From: Plasmodiophora brassicae
Taxonomy: Eukaryota
Assembly: GCA_036867785.1 (NCBI GenBank)
Contig: CP145415.1
Location: 992,001 to 1,056,000, forward strand
Length of the DNA: 64,000 bases
Direction: 5' to 3'
This document shows positions 9,586-19,632 of the stretch, piece after piece (the stretch's first letter is position 1; each line of letters starts with the position of its first letter). The notes beneath the pieces were generated by a model. It saw only the letters and a list, made by a program, of their open reading frames with translations, ran no database searches and was not told the DNA's origin. A program made the position numbers and the translations under genes.

Positions 9586-12500
9586 TCAGAAGGTGATCAC
9601 GTCGAGGTCAACGCGGATGGCGTGGCTGGACTCGTAGGCGGTGACGGCCTTCCAGACGCTGTTGGCGAGCTTCGACGGGCCGCACACGTACACGGCCACC
9701 GTGAAGAGCTCGTTCGGGCGAGCGGCGTGGGCGCGCTCCATGATGCCCGGGAACGCCGTCGCCATCGGCGGCGGTTTCGACGATGTGATCGTCGTGTCCG
9801 CGTTCTTCGAATGCGGGATGGTCTTACCGGGGCGTGTCAGGTACGCGTCGAAGCGCAGGTGCGGGTAGGATTGTGGTCCATTGGTATGCTTCGCGATCGC
9901 TTGGTCGATCGTGTCCTGGAACCAGGACAGCTCGGAGGCCCCGGGGATCATCCACAGCAGGAAGACGTCGCGCGTGTTCAACGACGGGGGCCCATCCGGT
10001 CGGCAGTAGATGTCGCGGATGATGGAGATCATGGGCGTCACGCCAATGCCGCCGGCAATCAGAACGACCACGTCGTAACGCTGTTAGGAAGACCGGTCAG
10101 TCACCGCCCTGTGCTCGGTGACAGCCAGCCAGCGCCGAACCTTGTACGACATGGCCAGGCGCCCGTACGGCCCGTCGACCCTGCACTTCAGCGCGTGCGT
10201 CGACGAATGCTGCTCGAGGGCGGCGAACCCGGTGAGCGCGCACGTGAAGTCGCCGGCCAGCTTGATGGTGAACTCAATGAACGGGTCGTGAGGCGCGCTG
10301 CTCAGCGTGAACGGGTGCCACTCGGTGCGGGACACGATCGGCACGTTCAGGTACATGAACTGACCCACGTGGAGCTTGGACGATTTCGACTTGGGCAGCC
10401 GGATTTGAACGGCGCCCCCGCCTGGGAGCACAGAACACGACAACGGCGCCTGATGAAACGTCAGCGGACGAGTCGTACATGCGGCGGCGGCGCCCAGGTT
10501 CGCACCTTCGCCTCCAGGCCACGAGCGTAACGCAGGATACGATCGACGGTCCAAACGACGACGGCGGCAATGACAAAGTTGCCCTGGATGACGGGCGCGT
10601 GCAGTGTGGCGAACGTGAAGAACGTGATGAACGACATGACGTGCAGCACGAGGAACGAATCGAAACAGTAGCGGCGAATGGCGGGCAGCGATTCGAGCAC
10701 GATGAAGAGCATCAGGAGCCAGGCGACCGTGCCCCATGTGTTCTTGCTGGTCGACAGCAGGATGCTGACGTTCGCCAGCACCGACTTCTTCAGGTACAGC
10801 GAGTACGCGCCGTGCACTGAGCTGATCCCGAACAGGAACAGGCCCAACCAGCGATGGAACTTGATGGCGCGTTCGAATGGCACGCGCAGCAGGAGGAACG
10901 CCAGCGAGTTCCTGGTCGCAGGGATCGCCACCCACATCGACGTTGCTGTGAATGGCAGAGGTTACGAACGCGGATACGGTGCAGGGATGTGCCCGCAGGT
11001 TACCTGAGGCGATGGACCCGAGACGCGACTGGACCGACAGCGCCGACATGGGCCAGATGTAGACCCAGGCGAACGCCAGGAACACGTACATTGTGAACGC
11101 GATGAACGACGCCATCGACGCCTGCGCGCTGGGCATCTTCGCCTCGAGCATGGCCCTCAGCTTGAGACGGGGGCGGCTGTAGATCGACTTGGATGGCAGC
11201 GGCTTCTCTGTGGCCATCGCGGTCGTGCCCCCGGCGACGCTCATCGCGGGGGGCGCACCGGGCGACGCCCCTGTGGTCGTCCGCGCCGGCGGCCCGTTGA
11301 AGAAGGACGGTATGACCACCAGCTGCGCTTCGCCGCTGAACGCGGCGGCGAGCTTCTTCGCGACCTTCTTCGCCCTTCGGAGGTACATGGCGACCAGGGC
11401 GGTGCGCACCAGGCGTGTCAGGCGGACGACGGCCACGACGCCGAGGACGCCCGCCACCGTCAACGAGAACGCGAGGCCGGCGTCGGTGCCGGCTGCCATC
11501 GCGACGCCCACGAAGTTGCTCGTGAACAGGTCGACCTGGACGATGCCGCTCGAGTCGTGCATGGGGAACCAGCCGACGCCGCCGTCGTAATGGGACCAGG
11601 CCCACGACATGTACACGGGCGACCCGGGCGTGAACGCCAGGCGACCCGCAGGCGCTAACGGCCTCTTGAACGTGACGCTGGTGGCCCCGTTCTGCTGGGA
11701 GCCGCTCACCTCCGTCAGCACCAACCCACCCGGGAACGGGTCCGGTTGCGTCTGCGACGACGAGAACCCGTTGAACACGGTCAGGTTCCCCGACGCATCG
11801 TCGATCCACGCCGTCGCCGATTCCGTGTTCAGGTGGCCGTCCGGGACGCTGGACCACCCGAGCGAGATCCACCCGGGCGTGCTGCCCGACAGCTTGAACG
11901 TGACGACGTTCGCGATCGTGTCCGTCGTCCAGGACACGTGCATGACGCCGTCGGCGGTGACGAAGGCGCCGTTCCCGGCCGAAGGCGTCCACGACGGGAA
12001 GAAGGAGATGGGCGCCACGCCGCGGTTGTCGTGCTCCGGGTACGACGTCGGCGATTGCCCGTCCTGGCTCGAGTAGGCCCAGCTGGCGAACAGCTGCGGG
12101 CCACCGGGGACGATGTCGAGGTGGTTCGCCGTCCCGATCACCAGCGGCCTCCGGAACCGGATCGTCGTCATCGGCGTGACGCCGTCCGACGCCCGGGCCT
12201 GCGTGCCCGAGATCGGCGTCACCGCCGGGTTCGTGTCGACGACCGGCGTCGTCCGCGAATTGGAGAACGCGTCGAACAGCGTCAGGGCGCCGGTGCGATC
12301 GTCGACCCATCCGACGATGGAGCTGGTGTTCGCGTGGCCGCCGCCCGTCGTCGACAGGCCCAGGCCGACCCACCCGCCCGTCATGGCCTCCACCGTGAAC
12401 GTCACCGCCGTCTGGTCGGACGAGATCGCCCACGTGATGTTCATGACGCCGTCGATCGAGATGATCGTGCTCGACGACGACGACGCGGCCGGCGGGAACG

Positions 12501-13242
12501 TTGCCGGCATTGGGGCAGGGGTCGGCGCCGGCGTTGGGGCAGGTGTCGGCGCCGGCGTCGGGCGAGGTGTCGGCGCTGGAGTCGGACGAGGTGTCGGAGC
12601 CGGCCTTGGCGTCGGCGCTGGCGTTTGACCGGGAACCGGTGCAGGAGTCGGGCCAAGCACCGGTGCCGGGGTAGGCACCGGCGTCGGTACAGGTGTGGGT
12701 GCCGGTGTGGGCGCCGGGGTCGGGACTGGTGTGGGTGCCGCTGCCGGCGCGATGAATTGCACAGGCCCATACGTCGTGCGAACGTCGTGCTGTGGGTAGC
12801 TGGTTGGACTGAGCTGTGTTGATGCCGCGACACCGCTGTAGGCGTTGGCCATGTACCACGACCCGCCGGGGACGATGTTCGCGTGGCATGGCCACGTGGC
12901 TGAGCACGAGGCCGTCAGCGGCCTCGAGAACGTGAACGTTGTCGTCGTTGACGTCTGCGAGAAGCTGACCGCTGTCACGTAGGGCGGCGTCGTCGCCGCG
13001 AACAGGGTGCCGACGTCACGCGACGTGGACCACGAGTCGACCAGCGTGAGCTGGCCGTTGTAGACCCAGCCGAGGACCCAGGCGGATTTCGAGTGCCCGG
13101 CCGAAGACGACGTCGACAGGCCGATCGCGATCCAGCCTTTCGTCGGCGCCGTCAGCGTGAACTTGACCGTGCCCGCCGTCTGGTCGATCGACCACGACGT
13201 CGTGAACGACCCGGATCCGACCGACCCCGTGATCACGCTCAT
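9586..13242 (-). CDS. Triple-DOMON / ferric reductase (NOX/FRE-family) flavocytochrome
   Basis: Three DOMON-like domains (GW(I/V)xxG.S...GH...(G/A)W ... P.HD) and a (PTPA)n linker. About 7 TM helices carry FHRWLG, SVHG, VLH and TLH. FAD motif HPFTLSS; NADPH motifs VDGPYG, LIAGGIGVTP and YVCGP. One intron at about 10946-11003 and two further introns. Confidence 0.88.
12510..12750 (-). repeat. Coding Pro-Thr-Pro-Ala/Val/Arg tandem repeat linker
   Basis: PTPVPTPAPTPAPTPVPTPV...PTPRPTPAPTPAP between DOMON1 and DOMON2. Confidence 0.9.
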
Positions 13243-13530: not shown

Positions 13531-14500
13531 ATGGACGAGGCGAGGGCGGTGCTGATAGACGCGGCGCGGTACGGCGACCCGGTCGCCGTCACGGTCTACA
13601 CGAGCGCCACGTACGACCAAGGTCCAGGTGATCGTACTGGCGCATGCGGTCGCTCTCGCTCATTCGTCCCAGTCACCGTGTTCGTTATCGAGGCCGACGT
13701 GGCCGACCTGCGCTGGTCGGTTCGTCACCGGTTCCGCGAGTTCGTCGTGTTGGATCGCGCGCTTCGCAGCCTGCACCGGTAACGGCGTTGATGCCACGAC
13801 GACAAGGAACGCGGCGCTGATCCAGGTGCTAGGGGCCTGCACGCCTCTGCCCCACTGGTCCGATTGCCCCGCAGGCACTGGCGCGTCCTGGTCGACCATG
13901 GCGATGGCCAGTTCCTATCGGCGCGCACGAAGGGCCTGCAGGACTTCCTGCAGCGGGCCGTCTCGATCGCCCCGTTGCTCGGGTCGGAACCCATGCTGCA
14001 ATTCCTGTGCCCGCCGTTCATGGCCCGCCCGCGACGCCTCCGCCAGGGGTCCGCCCAGGACGAAGACGATGAGCTCGATTCCTGCGACGACCCCACACCC
14101 GAGGTCACCGGCGTCGACATCGCAGGCGTAGGTGGACCTGGCGCGTCGCGACCGCACAGAGTCTGACGTGGCAGGCCGCGTACAGGTTCAATGCCTGACG
14201 AACGGGCGCGTCGTCTACCGGGTCAACGTGTGCAACGTCGCCAAGCCGGACGAGTTCCGCCAGTGGACCATGCTGAAATCGTTCTCGCAGTTCTTCCGGC
14301 TGAGCGTCGCGCTGCGCGACGCGTTCCCCGACGTGCACGTGGCGCGCCTGTCGAAATCGCCCATGGCCATCGTCGACCACCTGTCCCCGTCGTTCATCCA
14401 GCATCGCATGCGCACGCTGCAAGCGTTCCTGCGCGAGCTCCTCATGGATGCCCGGCTGGCCACCTGCGACGAGACGCTGACGTTCCTGGGCGTACGCTGA
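13531..14500 (+). CDS. Tandem PX (phox homology) domain protein, spliced
   Basis: First PX: WSVRHRFREFVVLDRAL...LPRRHW...FLSARTKGLQDFLQ. Second PX: WTMLKSFSQFFRLSVALRDAFP...FIQHRMRTLQAFLRELL...LTFLG. Confidence 0.75.
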
Positions 14501-14574
14501 CGGGGGGTCCATACACACACATCGGATACCTAATGGCAGACGTGCCGCGGCGGACCGGCCGTCGCCGTCCGAAC

Positions 14575-15576
14575 ATGGCGGCGCCGCGGGTGACCGTGAT
14601 CATGCCGGTCCACAACGGCGAGGCGACGCTGGCGGAGGCGGTTCGATCCATACAGTCGCAGACGATGCCGGCCTGGCGGTTAATCATTGTCGATGACGGG
14701 TCGACGGACGGCACCGCCGCGATCGTTGACGAGCTGGCCGGCGGCGACGACAGGATCGTCGTCGAGCGCACCCACGGCAACGTCGGCGTCGCCTCTGCAC
14801 TGAACCGAGCGCTTCAGTCGCCGATGGTCGCTGGCGAGTACGTTGCCAGGGCCGATGCGGACGATACCTGTCATCCGCAGCGCCTGGAAAGGCAGGTTGA
14901 ATTCCTCGCAGAGCACCCGGACGTGGACCTTTGTGGGACGCAGGTCTCGGTCGACGGGCGCCCGATCGCGATGCCGGCGCACGCGTGCCTCGCCGATTTC
15001 CACATGCACTTCTACTGTTCGGTCGCACACCCGAGCGTGATGTGGCGCAGGCGGCGGCTCGATCCGTTCCGGTACCTGGAGGACCCGGCGTTTCGACGCT
15101 GTGAAGACTACGCGACCTGGCTGCGCGTCCTGGGTTCTGAACGGCGCCTTGGCAACGTTGACGGGGAGCCCCTGGTTGATCTTCGACGACACGCCCGCTG
15201 CGTGTCGATCGTGCACTCTGCTGAACAGAAACGGGCGTCCGTTCTGGCGGCCCGGGATGCGATCGCCAGATTGCTTGGTGATGAAGGGACGGATGCGGAT
15301 GCGGTCGCCAGGATCCGCGATCCGATGTTGATCGTGTCCGCAACGGACGCGGGCCCGGCGTTCACGTTGATTAAGCGGATGCACGGCGCGTTCAGGCGAG
15401 GATGCCGACGGGACGGGACCTGTCCCCTGGTCGATGAAGACGTTGTCAAGCGCCTCGGCGAGATGGCAGCCCGAGCGATGCAGTATGGCGATGTGTCATT
15501 GTTCAAACAGTGGATCCAGGACTCGAACGGGAAACATGTCCCATTCCTGGAGCGACTACTATGCCCACCTTATTAG
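14575..15576 (+). CDS. Glycosyltransferase family 2 (intronless)
   Basis: Motifs VTVIMPVHNG, IIVDDGSTDGT, NVGVASALNRAL, YVARADADD, RLERQVEFL, HPSVMWR and EDYATWLR. Confidence 0.92.
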   Translation: MAAPRVTVIMPVHNGEATLAEAVRSIQSQTMPAWRLIIVDDGSTDGTAAIVDELAGGDDRIVVERTHGNVGVASALNRALQSPMVAGEYVARADADDTCHPQRLERQVEFLAEHPDVDLCGTQVSVDGRPIAMPAHACLADFHMHFYCSVAHPSVMWRRRRLDPFRYLEDPAFRRCEDYATWLRVLGSERRLGNVDGEPLVDLRRHARCVSIVHSAEQKRASVLAARDAIARLLGDEGTDADAVARIRDPMLIVSATDAGPAFTLIKRMHGAFRRGCRRDGTCPLVDEDVVKRLGEMAARAMQYGDVSLFKQWIQDSNGKHVPFLERLLCPPY

Positions 15577-15620
15577 CGCGTATAAATATGGAGCGGTCCA
15601 CCACCACCACCAATCGTGTA

Positions 15621-15887
15621 TCACGCATGCCACTCCTCGCTGAAGGGGCGCTCCGTGAACGCTTTGCCATTGACAAATCGCCAGCAGATCTCCGTCTTGT
15701 TCATGAAGGGCCTTGCGAAGAGCTCGCCGCACCCGTGGCACTTGCCGTCGCCTTTCGTGTAGTTCTCGATGATCCAGGCGGGCCTCAGATGCGTGATCGG
15801 GTGCCGCCCCCTCACCGCGTACAGGAGCAGCTGCCGGCCGCACATCATACAGCACAGCTTCGTCTTGCGCAGCACCGCATGGGTCAT
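15621..15887 (-). CDS. Small CxxC-CxxC zinc-ribbon protein, paralog 1 (88 aa)
   Basis: LCCMMC..LLLY...IIENYTKGDGKCHGCGELFARPF...W..V.GK; aligns with three neighbours. Confidence 0.75.
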   Translation of the reverse strand: MTHAVLRKTKLCCMMCGRQLLLYAVRGRHPITHLRPAWIIENYTKGDGKCHGCGELFARPFMNKTEICWRFVNGKAFTERPFSEEWHA

Positions 15888-16127
15888 CTTCGTCGCCGAC
15901 TGCGCACTCCCTGCCTGCCTGTACCGCATAGTCCCTGTTCAATACATGCAGGTAGGCCCGACTGCCATACGATATCGGCTGGGAGCAGCACGACGCGGTG
16001 TATGATGTCGTGTGCCTGCGTGCGTACGCTTGCCGTAATAGATCATCATGTTACTGCTGTCATCAACAACTACGACGCGATGTCTTGGGTATAATCGGGC
16101 AAGCTCCAGATCAGGCAGCGCCGGTAG

Positions 16128-16385
16128 TCAGTTGCGTTTGCGAGACCGTACGAAAAACGATTTGCCGCCGACCAGCTGCCACGCCCGTTCACCTTTCAGG
16201 GTGAACGGTCGGGCGAACGTCTGCCCGCATTGCTGGCACTTGCCGTCGCCAAGCGTGAAATCCTCGATGATCCTGGACGTTCGCAGCTTGATCAGCGCGC
16301 CGGTGCCCATCTTGGCGTACTGGACCAGGTAGGCGTGGCACGACTGGCAGGCCAAGGTCAAGCCGCGCAGCGCCTTCTTGGCCAT
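16128..16385 (-). CDS. Small CxxC-CxxC zinc-ribbon protein, paralog 2 (85 aa)
   Basis: LACQSCHAYLVQYAKMGTGALIKLRTSRIIEDFTLGDGKCQQCGQTFARPF...WQLVGGK. Confidence 0.8.
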   Translation of the reverse strand: MAKKALRGLTLACQSCHAYLVQYAKMGTGALIKLRTSRIIEDFTLGDGKCQQCGQTFARPFTLKGERAWQLVGGKSFFVRSRKRN

Positions 16386-16623
16386 CGGCCGCGCGCGGCG
16401 TCGGCGTCTCCCTCAACTGCGCTGACTCCCGCCGATCCAAATCGCCATCATTGCATTCGACTGCCCTCCGGCAGATATGTATTCCGTTCGCACATGACTG
16501 GTTGCGCTTATCGAAATGCCAAGAACACATATTGCCAGATCCCCGATGGCATAGAAATGGGAAATGAATAAAGTGATCGATGTGTTATTATTCATAATGG
16601 GTGCGCATCAGGAAGTCGGCAGG

Positions 16624-16872
16624 TCATTCATTGGGGCGCTGGACCTGACGGTGGAAGAACGTCGCCCCTCGGATCAGTCGCCAGGTCAGACCGTCTGGCG
16701 CAAAGTAAAGTCTTGCGAATGGTTGCCCGCATTCGTGGCAGTCGCCTTTGCCATCGGTGAAGTCGCGTTCGATTCTGCCCGGGTGCAGCTTCAGCAAGTC
16801 GGGCCTGGGTTTCCTGATCGAGTACCGCATGAGCGACGTCCGGCAGGACCTGCATGCCAGCGTGAAGCCCAT
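16624..16872 (-). CDS. Small CxxC-CxxC zinc-ribbon protein, paralog 3 (82 aa)
   Basis: LACRSC..LMRY...RIERDFTDGKGDCHECGQPFARL...WRLIRG. Confidence 0.75.
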   Translation of the reverse strand: MGFTLACRSCRTSLMRYSIRKPRPDLLKLHPGRIERDFTDGKGDCHECGQPFARLYFAPDGLTWRLIRGATFFHRQVQRPNE

Positions 16873-17122
16873 CGCGTCTCCTCTTCGCCGTCTTGCGGAC
16901 CGCCCGCCCCCGCGCGGCGCGCAGTGCCACAGCGTGTATACCAGGACGAGCGTTGCAGAAATGGCCGATGTCACCCGGACCCGAATATTCAGCAGATCAC
17001 GTCCATTGGTTCGTCTGACGACCGTACAGTGCGGCTGTCTACAGGGCCGATCGATGCTGTTCGACGATTTCACACAATCGTGCTCATGAGCGTGGTATAC
17101 ATATACAGCAGTCGTTTACAGA

Positions 17123-17389
17123 TTAAGGTTGGAGGTCGTCAATAGCGTCGTCGAAGCTTGCCCCTTTGCCGACCAGGTGCCACGACAGTTCGCTCTTGTA
17201 TATCATCGGTCTGGCGAACCGCTCCCCGCACTCGTGGCAGTCGCCGGAACCCTTCGTGAAGTCGTCGACGATCCTCGACGTCCGCAGTCGCCTCGGCAAG
17301 CCGCCATCGCCTCTATGCGCGTACTTGAACAGCGTCGTCTGACAGGACTGGCACACCAGTCGCAGAAACCGGTGCCCAATCACCGGCAT
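17123..17389 (-). CDS. Small CxxC-CxxC zinc-ribbon protein, paralog 4 (88 aa)
   Basis: LVCQSC..LFKY...LRTSRIVDDFTKGSGDCHECGERFARPM...WHLVGKG. Confidence 0.75.
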   Translation of the reverse strand: MPVIGHRFLRLVCQSCQTTLFKYAHRGDGGLPRRLRTSRIVDDFTKGSGDCHECGERFARPMIYKSELSWHLVGKGASFDDAIDDLQP

Positions 17390-17749
17390 GCAACTGCAAC
17401 GGGCAGCAGAGCGCTCGCGATTTCGCAACCGCCACAAAATGCGTGGCCGCGTCCAGCGATCCTCAACTCACTTCTCAACAGGCATCGTCAAACACCCCTG
17501 AACGAGCCTCCGTAGCACATCGCATTTTCATTCGTGTTGGAGGGGGGCAGTCATGGCGTTCAATGAGGGAACTTGTCTGGTTCGACGAGCCAAGGGATCG
17601 AGATTAATAATCTCGATCCCTTGGCACGTCGAACTCCGAAGCCGCCACAAGGCAAAATAAAACACAACGGGCAGCGGCGGAGTCTCACAGTTGAAAGTCC
17701 GCGACGGCCGCCACTGCTGGTCGTCGATCGTCCCGACGTCGTCGCCGAC

Positions 17750-19632
17750 ATGAGTGTCCACTATCGGTTCGTCAGTAGCAAGGATAAGCGATGGGACACG
17801 ATCGGATTCGACTCGGCGGTCATTTCCGTGCTCGATCTGAAGCGGGCCATTGTCGCGGCGCTCGCCAACGCCCCGAAAGGGACCGCGCCCGTCGGGCCGC
17901 CAAATTTTGACCTGATCCTGACGAACCAAGTGACTGGAGAACGTACGATAATCATACATGCTTTAATTCTCAGGCCTCATGTGCATTTTTACTACAGGGT
18001 ACCTGGCTGATAATTTCCTCATCCCAAAGAATACATCTGTTGAAGTACGGAAAACGCCTTCATCGGCTGACAAACATAAGCGGTTGTTGGAGCCGACAGA
18101 AGTCACACTTCTTGCCGCCGGGACGGCGCATCTGACGTTGGGGTCGTCGGATGATCCATCGCAGATTTCCCCCGAAGACGAAGAGGCGCGCCGCCTGGAA
18201 TCTGTCCTCAATCAGCCGCCTGCCTATGCAGGTAGGAATACATTCTATGTATGTTCCATGTGGATCCTGGCTCATGTTTGCTACAGGTGGTCTTACGTAT
18301 TCAAAGACAAAGCACTCATCCGGGTTGATTCACGACCTCTCCGCTGCCGTGAATGCACCAGCAGCAATTTCGGTCCCGACAATGCCAGTGGCTGGAGCCG
18401 CGTTCGGTGGACGTCGGCCCCAGTTCGTCCGGACCGGCAAGCCACGTCCAGGCTACATCTGCCATAGGTGCCAGACACCCGGTCATTTCATTCATGAGTG
18501 CCCTACGAACGGCAACTCCGAGTTCAACTTCCAGCGCCCCAAGCCTATTACTGGAATCCCGATCTCCATGCTCAAGCCTGCTGCGGAAGGGAAGAGGGGC
18601 GCGTTCTTATTGGATGACGGGTCAGTATTGCGCTACGTACCCGTATCAATACATCTCATACGCTGTTGTCGCAGGCGTTTCGCTGACATCGAACCGAACC
18701 AGGGTGCGTTCGAGGATGCGTTCCGACCACAGGATCGTGCACTGGATATCATGAAGGCGAAGGTATATCCACAATTGTAATGCTATGCACCGCGTGGCTT
18801 ACCAGCTGTGCTATAGGCAGCCGCCGAGTCTGCGACGCGGATCACATGTTCTCTGTGCAATTCGGTGCTGACGGACCCGGTTGTCTCGCCGTGTTGCTTC
18901 CAGACGTTCTGCCGCCAGTGCTTCACGGATGCGCTGGCACGTTCATCGGGAACGTGCCCGTTCTGCCAGTCGCCTGATGTGAATGCGTCCGACGTCATGC
19001 CCAACGAAGCGGCCGCAAGAGAAGTTGCCGAACACGTTGAGAAGTTTGGGCGCGCCCCCTTGCCGCTTGAAGAAGAGCAGCCGGTATCGCAGCCGAAGGC
19101 AGCTCCCATCCCGATTTACGAATCGCAAACGGAGCCCGAGTCGCGCTCGACGTTCGGGAGGCCTCACGGCCAGCGACCTCGTCCGGCACGCGTGACTCCT
19201 ACAATGCACTTCCGGGCGCCGGCTCCGTTTCCTCATCCGTATCCATCGGAACCATTCGTCCCACATCATCCACCGCCTCCACCCCCGCCTGAACATCCGC
19301 CAGGTCCTCGCGATCGCCGGCCCGGGCCCATGTACAGGGGTGACGGCCCGGAACAAAGGCAGGCGTTGCGGAGCCCTGAACGCAGACGACCGAGTCGAAG
19401 CCCTGAACGCCTTCGCAAGAGTCGCAGCCCAGCCGGGCAATCGCAATCGTATCGCGATGTACGAGCTCGCAGCCGAAGCCCAATGTCACGGCGCCACCAC
19501 CCTGATCGGGATCGCGATTACGACCGTAGTCGGTACGGTGGCGACCGTGACAGGCACTATCGTGATGAACGCGACGGGCGTTACCAACGCGATCGACCTT
19601 TCCGTGGCGAACGTGGAAGGTCCCGTCGCTGA
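17750..19632 (+). CDS. RBBP6: RBBP6/Mpe1-like protein (DWNN domain, zinc knuckle, RING, RS-rich tail), multi-exon
   Basis: DWNN: MSVHYRFVSSK...ISVLDLKRAI...LIPKNTSVEVRK. Zinc knuckle: PGYICHRCQTPGHFIHECPTN, then KPITGIPISML. RING: CSLC...DPVVSPCCFQTFCRQC...CPFC. RSRSP-rich tail. Confidence 0.9.

What the first reader, a model, noticed from the sequence alone, without database searches (positions are those of the whole stretch)
15621..17389. Tandem array of four divergent, intronless zinc-ribbon microproteins
Seen: four same-strand ORFs of 82-88 aa at about 500-bp spacing share L.CxxC...L..Y....G....L...RI..DFT.G.G.CxxCG..FAR......W.LV.G. The rest of each sequence is strongly diverged but every frame is intact, which suggests purifying selection after old duplications. 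They are easy for gene callers to miss. From memory, the pattern resembles an uncharacterised small bacterial/algal protein family (unverified). Inference: a lineage-specific expansion, possibly horizontally acquired, of basic Zn-binding proteins that may bind nucleic acid or protein. The adjacent intronless GT2 adds to the bacterial-like character.
Basis: partly seen in the sequence, partly recalled or inferred. Interest (0 to 1): 0.7.

Follow-up and report, generated by a model that had tools for sequence, protein, structure and literature searches.

The report
Four diverged tiny zinc-protein paralogues
A plant-parasitic protist carries four adjacent, transcribed copies of a tiny zinc protein from an unnamed family shared with bacteria and algae; the copies keep the predicted scaffold, but each has changed the lysines that the rest of the family conserves.

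Summary
The four minus-strand ORFs are real: intact, intronless, 500 bp apart, 32-47% identical, covered by spliced-RNA contigs in four studies, and already called as proteins in NCBI/UniRef. They are the only copies found in this 25.3-Mb genome (probably Plasmodiophora brassicae; inferred) and form one clade. They belong to an unnamed ~80-aa family with no Pfam or NCBIfam model, patchy in bacteria and also found in green algae, oomycetes and a choanoflagellate. AlphaFold plus structure search gives a shrunken beta-tent (Mis18/MsrB/cereblon/RIG-I-CTD-like) fold, with modest Z of about 5. The family signature is a lysine triad, KKK in 62 of 71 relatives. No window copy keeps it (VHR, KKQ, IKR, HRH), although all keep the four cysteines and the core. 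Best reading: a small phosphate- or nucleic-acid-binding module, duplicated locally, whose binding face diverged while copy 2 stayed near-ancestral. The ligand is inferred, not shown. Bacterial transfer is neither supported nor rejected: the nearest named relatives are oomycete proteins and AU tests reject nothing. The neighbouring GT2 shows no link to the array.

The parts
15621..15887 (-). Copy 1, 88 aa (102 aa if the ATG at 15929 is used). Most altered: keeps 14 of 23 family-conserved positions; triad reads V/H/R
   Evidence: RNA contigs
16128..16385 (-). Copy 2, 85 aa. Closest to the family: keeps 20 of 23 positions; triad K/K/Q; shortest branch (0.56 against 1.7-2.1)
   Evidence: AlphaFold model pLDDT 88
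16624..16872 (-). Copy 3, 82 aa. Keeps 15 of 23 positions; Gly-rich loop replaced by a Pro-rich loop; triad I/K/R
   Evidence: RNA contigs
17123..17389 (-). Copy 4, 88 aa. Keeps 15 of 23 positions; triad H/R/H; acidic C-terminal tail; lowest net charge (+3 against family median +11)
   Evidence: Atlas TM 0.81-0.82 to family clusters
15583..15620 (-). 3' UTR of copy 1, ending at a probable poly(A) site (8 non-genomic T at 15583 in 1 of 4 runs)
   Evidence: table 7
16565..16623 (-). Probable 3' UTR of copy 3: contigs of 3 of 4 studies stop at 16565 (weak hint; no DNA run laid)
   Evidence: table 8
14533..15576 (+). Context, not part of the array: intronless GT2 glycosyltransferase, tail to tail with copy 1
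17750..19632 (+). Context: divergently oriented, spliced DWNN-domain gene (RBBP6/Mpe1-like, name recalled), used as the RNA control

Best explanation
The array is an old local tandem duplication of one gene from an undescribed ~80-residue family. SHOWN: four intact genes, covered by spliced-RNA contigs, one clade, host-like base composition, homologous to single-copy bacterial genes and to genes of several eukaryote lineages. [quoted passage not shown] INFERRED: the family's near-invariant Y23, K25, Gly loop, K33, R59 and K70 (copy-2 numbering) line the groove that beta-tent proteins use as their binding site, and grip a phosphate-rich ligand (an RNA end or backbone, or a nucleotide) without catalysis. 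After duplication copy 2 stayed near the ancestral state. Copies 1, 3 and 4 kept the Zn scaffold but each rewrote the groove differently, which would give intracellular binders of changed specificity or affinity.
For: Family: 110 representatives at E<=0.001, of which 4 are the window's own and 2 are long repeat proteins; Atlas clusters at TM 0.85-0.86. Fold: pLDDT 88 and 86 for copy 2 and for a typical member. 19 of the top 23 VIA rows name beta-tent families by title (best Mis18-alpha Z 5.4, rmsd 3.1, 72 aligned; MsrB1 Z 5.2; cereblon Z 5.2), and only 80 of 48,161 chains reach Z 2; the second model gives the same list. Beta-tent proteins carry their binding site in a groove between the insert and the C-terminal sheet (PMC4287342, parts 2-3 of 6 read). 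RIG-I uses three lysines plus a histidine for 5'-triphosphate (PMC11346460, one passage). Triad KKK in 62 of 71 relatives; Lys at the equivalent places also in the distant subfamilies, by eye. Window triads VHR, KKQ, IKR, HRH; retention 14/20/15/15 of 23 against a family median of 21, with 1 of 71 relatives at 15 or fewer. Eleven scaffold positions, including all four Cys, are kept in all four copies. RNA cover and spliced control. GC3 0.76-0.89, against 0.76 and 0.62 for the two neighbours.
Against: Z of about 5 is below the level (8) at which the tool calls a match more than a common arrangement, and Foldseek found nothing at E<=0.001; its top rows were ribosomal eS27-sized chains. A profile comparison with the genome's own STEEP1 fragment gave probability 2.8%, so beta-tent kinship has no sequence support. 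I could not read model coordinates, so clustering of the lysines in one groove is untested. No ligand, partner or conserved gene neighbourhood was found. dN/dS of 0.44-0.82 fits relaxed selection as well as specialisation. No protein-level evidence.
Confidence: 0.45

Rival explanations
1. One working gene plus three slowly decaying spares: copy 2 does the family's job, and copies 1, 3 and 4 drift under relaxed selection.
For: Long branches (1.7-2.1 against 0.56); loss of family-conserved residues; dN/dS up to 0.82.
Against: Synonymous sites are far diverged (four-fold identity 50 of 90, floor 0.39) and the spacers are unalignable, yet all frames, all 16 core Cys and 11 scaffold positions survive. 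Identity is 0.62 at family-conserved columns against 0.34 elsewhere. All four are covered by RNA contigs, with no variant letters in 4 of 4 runs.
Confidence: 0.25
2. The family is an accessory ribosome- or RNP-binding protein (eS27/bL33-like zinc ribbon) of bacteria and organelles, and the copies act on the parasite's own translation machinery.
For: Foldseek's top two rows are trypanosomatid ribosome chains (E 0.16-0.17, TM 0.39-0.40). The Atlas lists bL33 and eS27 at TM 0.44-0.48. Basic tails; several eukaryote-type members have extensions that look like transit peptides by eye (no predictor run).
Against: Ribosomal chains of this size score lower than beta-tent ones (Z 3.5 or less against 5.4). 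No ribosomal chain matches the family profile at E<0.05. The family is patchy (4 of 251 and 14 of 251 genomes). The window copies have no extension, apart from 14 residues in the long form of copy 1.
Confidence: 0.12
3. A thiol or redox protein that works like MsrB.
For: MsrB1 is among the top fold matches. An msrA gene lies downstream in 12 of 80 bacterial loci (Pfam PMSR in 5 of 57 scanned). A fifth Cys occurs in 44 of 71 relatives.
Against: All four copies have Leu at the fifth-Cys position, and no Cys is conserved in the C-terminal strands. The 12 msrA loci largely share their other flanks and look like one lineage. No SelR Pfam match.
Confidence: 0.05
4. Small Cys-rich effectors delivered into the host plant.
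For: Small, Cys-containing, tandem and fast-evolving genes in an inferred biotrophic parasite; RNA contigs exist.
Against: No hydrophobic signal segment (best 9-residue Kyte-Doolittle mean 0.7-1.3). The Cys pairs are modelled as a Zn site typical of intracellular proteins. The family is mostly in free-living bacteria and algae.
Confidence: 0.06
5. Origin rival: a gene taken from a bacterium by the plasmodiophorid lineage.
For: Intronless; the Atlas clusters are 75-100% bacterial; no close relative from another rhizarian was found; AU tests do not reject a sister position to two bacterial groups (p 0.47 and 0.39).
Against: The copies do not nest among named bacteria in any of three trees. They sit, unstarred (80-88), with Saprolegnia and Aphanomyces proteins and unnamed metagenome proteins. 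The family is in green algae, a choanoflagellate and oomycetes. Composition is host-like. Vertical descent within SAR, or transfer from an oomycete host, fit at least as well; an oomycete parasite branches near P. brassicae (PMC4016497, passages).
Confidence: 0.3

Closest known systems
Unnamed ~80-aa CxxC...CxxC 'hypothetical / Zn-ribbon motif' family (ESM Atlas clusters of 52-146 members; e.g. WP_062567967.1, Saprolegnia SDRG_01287, Aphanomyces RHZ30754.1)
   Same: Full-length homology, four Cys, core residues, predicted structure at TM 0.81-0.86.
   Different: Single copy per bacterial genome examined against four in tandem here; lysine triad broken in all four; fifth Cys and the Pro after the third Cys lost; shared Trp69 (6 of 71 relatives).
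Beta-tent fold proteins: Mis18/Yippee (PF03226), MsrB (PF01641), cereblon CULT, RIG-I/MDA5/LGP2 C-terminal domain, STEEP1 (PF25809)
   Same: Predicted two-sheet, Zn-pinned topology with an insert; Z 4.7-5.6 over 66-78 residues for the best rows; Atlas TM 0.56-0.61.
   Different: About 80 aa against 92-135; seven strands of three or more residues in the models; no sequence match; no tri-Trp cage and no MsrB catalytic Cys. The genome has its own separate Yippee/Mis18 and STEEP1 genes.
Ribosomal zinc ribbons eS27 and bL33
   Same: Small, basic, two CxxC knuckles; Z up to 3.5.
   Different: Only 46-60 residues align; below family cut-offs; patchy rather than universal.
DUF6510 (PF20120)
   Same: Weak match over the first knuckle (20.5 bits, E 0.00045).
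   Different: Below the cut-off of 26.4; 3 of 68 members match; TM 0.43.

Membership tests
Unnamed 80-aa bacterial/algal Zn family | Full-length profile match and predicted structural match | tested here: met
Unnamed 80-aa bacterial/algal Zn family | Two CxxC pairs plus L20, Y23, I39, T44, F57, A58, R59 | tested here: met
   kept in 4 of 4 copies
Unnamed 80-aa bacterial/algal Zn family | Lysine triad K25/K33/K70 (a signature defined here, 62 of 71 relatives) | tested here: not met
   VHR, KKQ, IKR, HRH. This makes the copies diverged variants; 9 of 71 relatives also lack the full triad
Beta-tent fold | Two antiparallel sheets pinned by a Zn site from two CxxC, with an insert between strands 2 and 3 | tested here: inconclusive
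   Consistent top matches but Z only 4.7-5.6, on predicted models
Beta-tent fold | Bound zinc | not testable with these tools
   needs a metal assay
Beta-tent fold | Binding groove lined by the conserved residues | not testable with these tools
   model coordinates are not returned by the tools
Yippee/Mis18 (PF03226), STEEP1 (PF25809), CULT | Profile match above the family cut-off | tested here: not met
   no such Pfam row for the four copies or among the 25 families shown for 68 members; genome searches with PF25809 and PF03226 hit other contigs only
MsrB (PF01641) | Catalytic Cys/Sec in the C-terminal sheet and SelR profile match | tested here: not met
   no conserved Cys after the second CxxC; no SelR row
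Ribosomal eS27 / bL33 | Family score above the curated cut-off | tested here: not met
   eS27: 12.6 bits against a cut-off of 70 for copy 1
Secreted small Cys-rich effectors | N-terminal signal peptide | tested here: not met
   hydropathy scan only, no signal-peptide predictor run

The most novel reading that the evidence does not exclude
The family is the smallest stand-alone beta-tent known, a three-lysine sensor of RNA ends or nucleotides that works like a free RIG-I C-terminal domain in bacteria and organelles. The clubroot lineage got it from an oomycete host of its ancestors, dropped organelle targeting, and turned four tandem copies into a panel of binders with different specificities.
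Probability: 0.1. Interest if true: 0.75.

Novelty: new variant of a known kind. Interest (0 to 1): 0.42.

Why it matters
The tandem duplication itself is ordinary. The value lies in the family: widespread, without a model or a paper that I could find, probably a minimal beta-tent, and with a clear three-lysine signature that can be tested in a marine bacterium or an alga. A parasite with a compact genome keeps four transcribed copies that each alter this signature, which gives a natural series for finding what the site binds.

Tried and rejected
Named families: no Pfam or NCBIfam match over cut-off for the four copies; only weak zinc-ribbon rows for 68 members. PDB by sequence: only short CxxC/C2H2 matches. 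Viral origin: no relative in IMG/VR, phage records or BFVD folds. Metagenome scans with copy 2 and with the nearest relatives confirmed nothing, so P0007/P0239 and P0029/P0250 stay of unknown origin. Gene neighbourhood: 57 downstream and 56 upstream ORFs picked from 80 loci gave mixed enzymes; some picks were wrong frames, and the 80 loci are the best of 135 and biased to Latescibacterota. Vibrio has an SgrR-type gene upstream in 2 of 2 loci read and cutA downstream in 1 of 2. Selenocysteine: an in-frame TGA in L119 sits at an Arg position, not a Cys; rejected. Link to GT2: none. Further copies in the genome: none with four queries, though an intron-split copy could be missed. No RNA holder is listed on record; the runs were judged RNA from their spliced joints. 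Low cover at 17418-17618 is not used as evidence. Comparison with the genome's Yippee fragment failed on an intron and was dropped. Literature: searches on family motifs (0 papers), beta-tent terms, small CxxC proteins and P. brassicae terms showed no description of this family or array in their listings; supplementary tables were not searched and may list these genes as hypothetical proteins.

Full report
Observation. Copies 2-4 are 42, 32 and 37% identical to copy 1, and both CxxC pairs are invariant. All 6 pairwise scores (128-193) beat the best of 500 shuffles (43-54). The DNA period is 498, 502 and 499 bp, but the three spacers align no better than shuffles. All four proteins are already in NCBI, UniRef and nr, copy 1 as a 102-aa form from an upstream ATG at 15929, so gene callers did not miss them.

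Setting. The window lies on contig C10 of a 25,283,981-base genome in 20 contigs, between a GT2 gene and a spliced DWNN-domain gene. I infer Plasmodiophora brassicae from size, contig number and compact gene style; published figures are 25.1 Mb with 20 nuclear contigs (PMC6823432, abstract), and short intergenic distances with overlapping UTRs (PMC4815078, passages). No tool named the organism. GC is 0.61-0.62 and GC3 0.76-0.89, against GC3 0.76 and 0.62 for the two neighbours, so the genes look native. Four queries, two of them outside family members, each found these four places only.

Expression. I laid 4 of 24 listed runs, from four studies. None is on record as RNA, but all 4 skip the four GT..AG introns of the neighbour. 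Contigs cover copies 1-3 in all four runs; copy 4 has a listed piece in one run (20 pieces were not shown) and depth in all four. No joint falls inside the array. One run has eight non-genomic T at 15583, a likely poly(A) tail of copy 1; three studies stop at 16565, 59 bases behind copy 3 (weak hint). Some contigs span copies 1 and 2, which does not show a single transcript. No variant letters were seen; a Logan variant of copy 2 differs at one residue. Translation is not shown.

Family. No Pfam or NCBIfam family passes its cut-off. A profile of the four against 1.84 billion representatives gave 110 hits at E<=0.001: the four themselves, two long repeat proteins that I dropped, and 104 short proteins. 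The ESM Atlas gave unnamed clusters at feature scores 0.95-0.98 and TM 0.85-0.86. Of 20 relatives looked up, four carry a eukaryote label: Aphanomyces astaci, the green alga Asterochloris, the choanoflagellate Helgoeca and an MMETSP transcript; Saprolegnia diclina has one on a 1.5-Mb contig. In bacteria it occurs in Latescibacterota, Acidobacteriota, Planctomycetota, Nitrospirota and others (135 loci, 80 kept), and in Vibrio and Pseudoalteromonas (20 records). It is patchy and single-copy: 4 of 251 genomes in one phylum sample, and 14 of 251 in another, eight of those from distant subfamilies. No viral member was found. Neighbourhoods are not conserved; msrA follows it in 12 of 80 loci that look like one lineage.

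Fold. AlphaFold on a 68-row alignment gave pLDDT 88 and pTM 0.73 for copy 2, with seven strands; a typical member gave 86 with the same layout. Foldseek found nothing at E<=0.001. VIA-align against 48,161 chains found 80 at Z>=2, and 19 of the top 23 titles name beta-tent proteins: Mis18-alpha (Z 5.4, rmsd 3.1, 72 aligned), MsrB1 (5.2), cereblon (5.2), RIG-I-like C-terminal domains, YPEL5 and TCTP; eS27 and bL33 follow at 3.5 or less. The second model repeats this, best Z 5.6. The Atlas adds STEEP1, Yippee and SelR at TM 0.56-0.61. These Z values are modest and sequence support is absent, so I call the fold beta-tent-like, not proven. In that class a Zn pins two sheets, and the ligand sits in a groove between the inserted hairpin and the C-terminal sheet (PMC4287342, parts 2-3 of 6).

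What the copies kept and lost. I aligned the 71 of 107 relatives that cover most of the domain. Twenty-three positions are at least 80% conserved. Eleven are kept in all four copies: four Cys, L20, Y23, I39, T44, F57, A58, R59. Three lysines, K25, K33 and K70 (99, 96 and 92%), read KKK in 62 of 71 relatives; the copies read VHR, KKQ, IKR and HRH. Retention is 14, 20, 15 and 15 of 23, against a family median of 21; only 1 of 71 relatives is at 15 or fewer. The family's fifth Cys (44 of 71) is Leu in all four. Pairwise dN is 0.43-0.77 and dS 0.85-1.04, ratios 0.44-0.82; dS is probably underestimated, because GC bias puts the saturation floor at 0.39 and four-fold identity is 50 of 90. So the scaffold is constrained and the rest changes fast, mostly in copies 1, 3 and 4 (branches 1.7-2.1 against 0.56).

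Origin. The four form one clade (SH-aLRT 86 with 74 rows, 97 with 46 rows; quick trees; the careful search did not finish, and long branches meet inside the clade). Their neighbours, unstarred at 80-88, are the two oomycete proteins and unnamed metagenome proteins that also lack the fifth Cys. With copy 2 alone, AU tests reject neither a sister position to two bacterial groups (p 0.47, 0.39) nor to the oomycetes (p 0.57; that constrained tree scored 3.2 log units higher than the free one). Eighty columns cannot settle it. Vertical descent in SAR, transfer from an oomycete host (Woronina pythii, a parasite of Pythium, branches near P. brassicae; PMC4016497, passages) and transfer from a bacterium all stay open. 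The GT2 is about 30% identical to generic bacterial GT2s and no evidence ties it to the array.

Mechanism. Shown: intact genes, RNA cover, one clade, family membership. Predicted: a Zn-pinned minimal beta-tent. Inferred: invariant lysines, an arginine, a tyrosine and a glycine loop on a small basic domain with no catalytic residue most simply bind phosphates; RIG-I's domain of the same class grips 5'-triphosphate with K858, K861, K888 and H847 (PMC11346460, one passage), though I did not test whether the positions correspond. I therefore read the family as an accessory RNA- or nucleotide-binding module, and the array as one near-ancestral copy plus three with altered binding faces (0.45). Rivals: slow decay of spares (0.25), ribosome accessory (0.12), effector (0.06; no hydrophobic leader), redox enzyme (0.05).

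Novelty. I found no description of the family or the array in the listings; supplements were not searched. One earlier scan note, e1-875605, reports an undescribed small Zn beta-tent family beside a nucleotide-processing module in ultra-small bacteria; sequence look-ups with four family members found no overlap, so it may be a different family, and it is a lead only. Verdict: a real, expressed, ordinary tandem duplication of an undescribed and testable small family; new variant of a known fold class; interest 0.42.

Noticed in passing
window 17580-17634: Near-perfect palindrome (27-base arms, 96% complementary, 1 base apart) between copy 4 and the divergently oriented DWNN gene; z = -10 against shuffles; its centre occurs once in the genome.
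   Followed up: partly
window 15621-17389: The repeat period stays at 498-502 bp although the spacers no longer align; something may constrain unit length.
   Followed up: no
window 15888-15929: Databases use an upstream in-frame ATG for copy 1 (102 aa); one RNA contig reaches 15952, so either start is possible.
   Followed up: partly
window 14127-14186: Intron of the gene upstream of GT2 is spliced in 3 of 4 runs, but one contig of the fourth runs through it to the end of GT2.
   Followed up: no
L114-L119, L121-L122: Two distant bacterial subfamilies (first or second site CxC instead of CxxC) keep the Tyr-Lys-Gly-loop-Lys signature; L121 and L122 lie near a selD-like gene (name recalled); L119 carries a stop at an Arg position.
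   Followed up: partly
L016, L019, L020, L025, L026, L028, L030, L039, L060, L062, L073, L075: msrA lies just downstream of the family gene in one bacterial lineage, of note given the MsrB-like fold.
   Followed up: partly
protein P0062: A family member joined to a monothiol-glutaredoxin-like C-terminus (motif recalled); may be a chimeric contig.
   Followed up: no
window 10084-13242 (-): Long ORF that looks like repeated DOMON domains with a Pro-Thr-Ala linker and a ferric-reductase-like end (names recalled).
   Followed up: no
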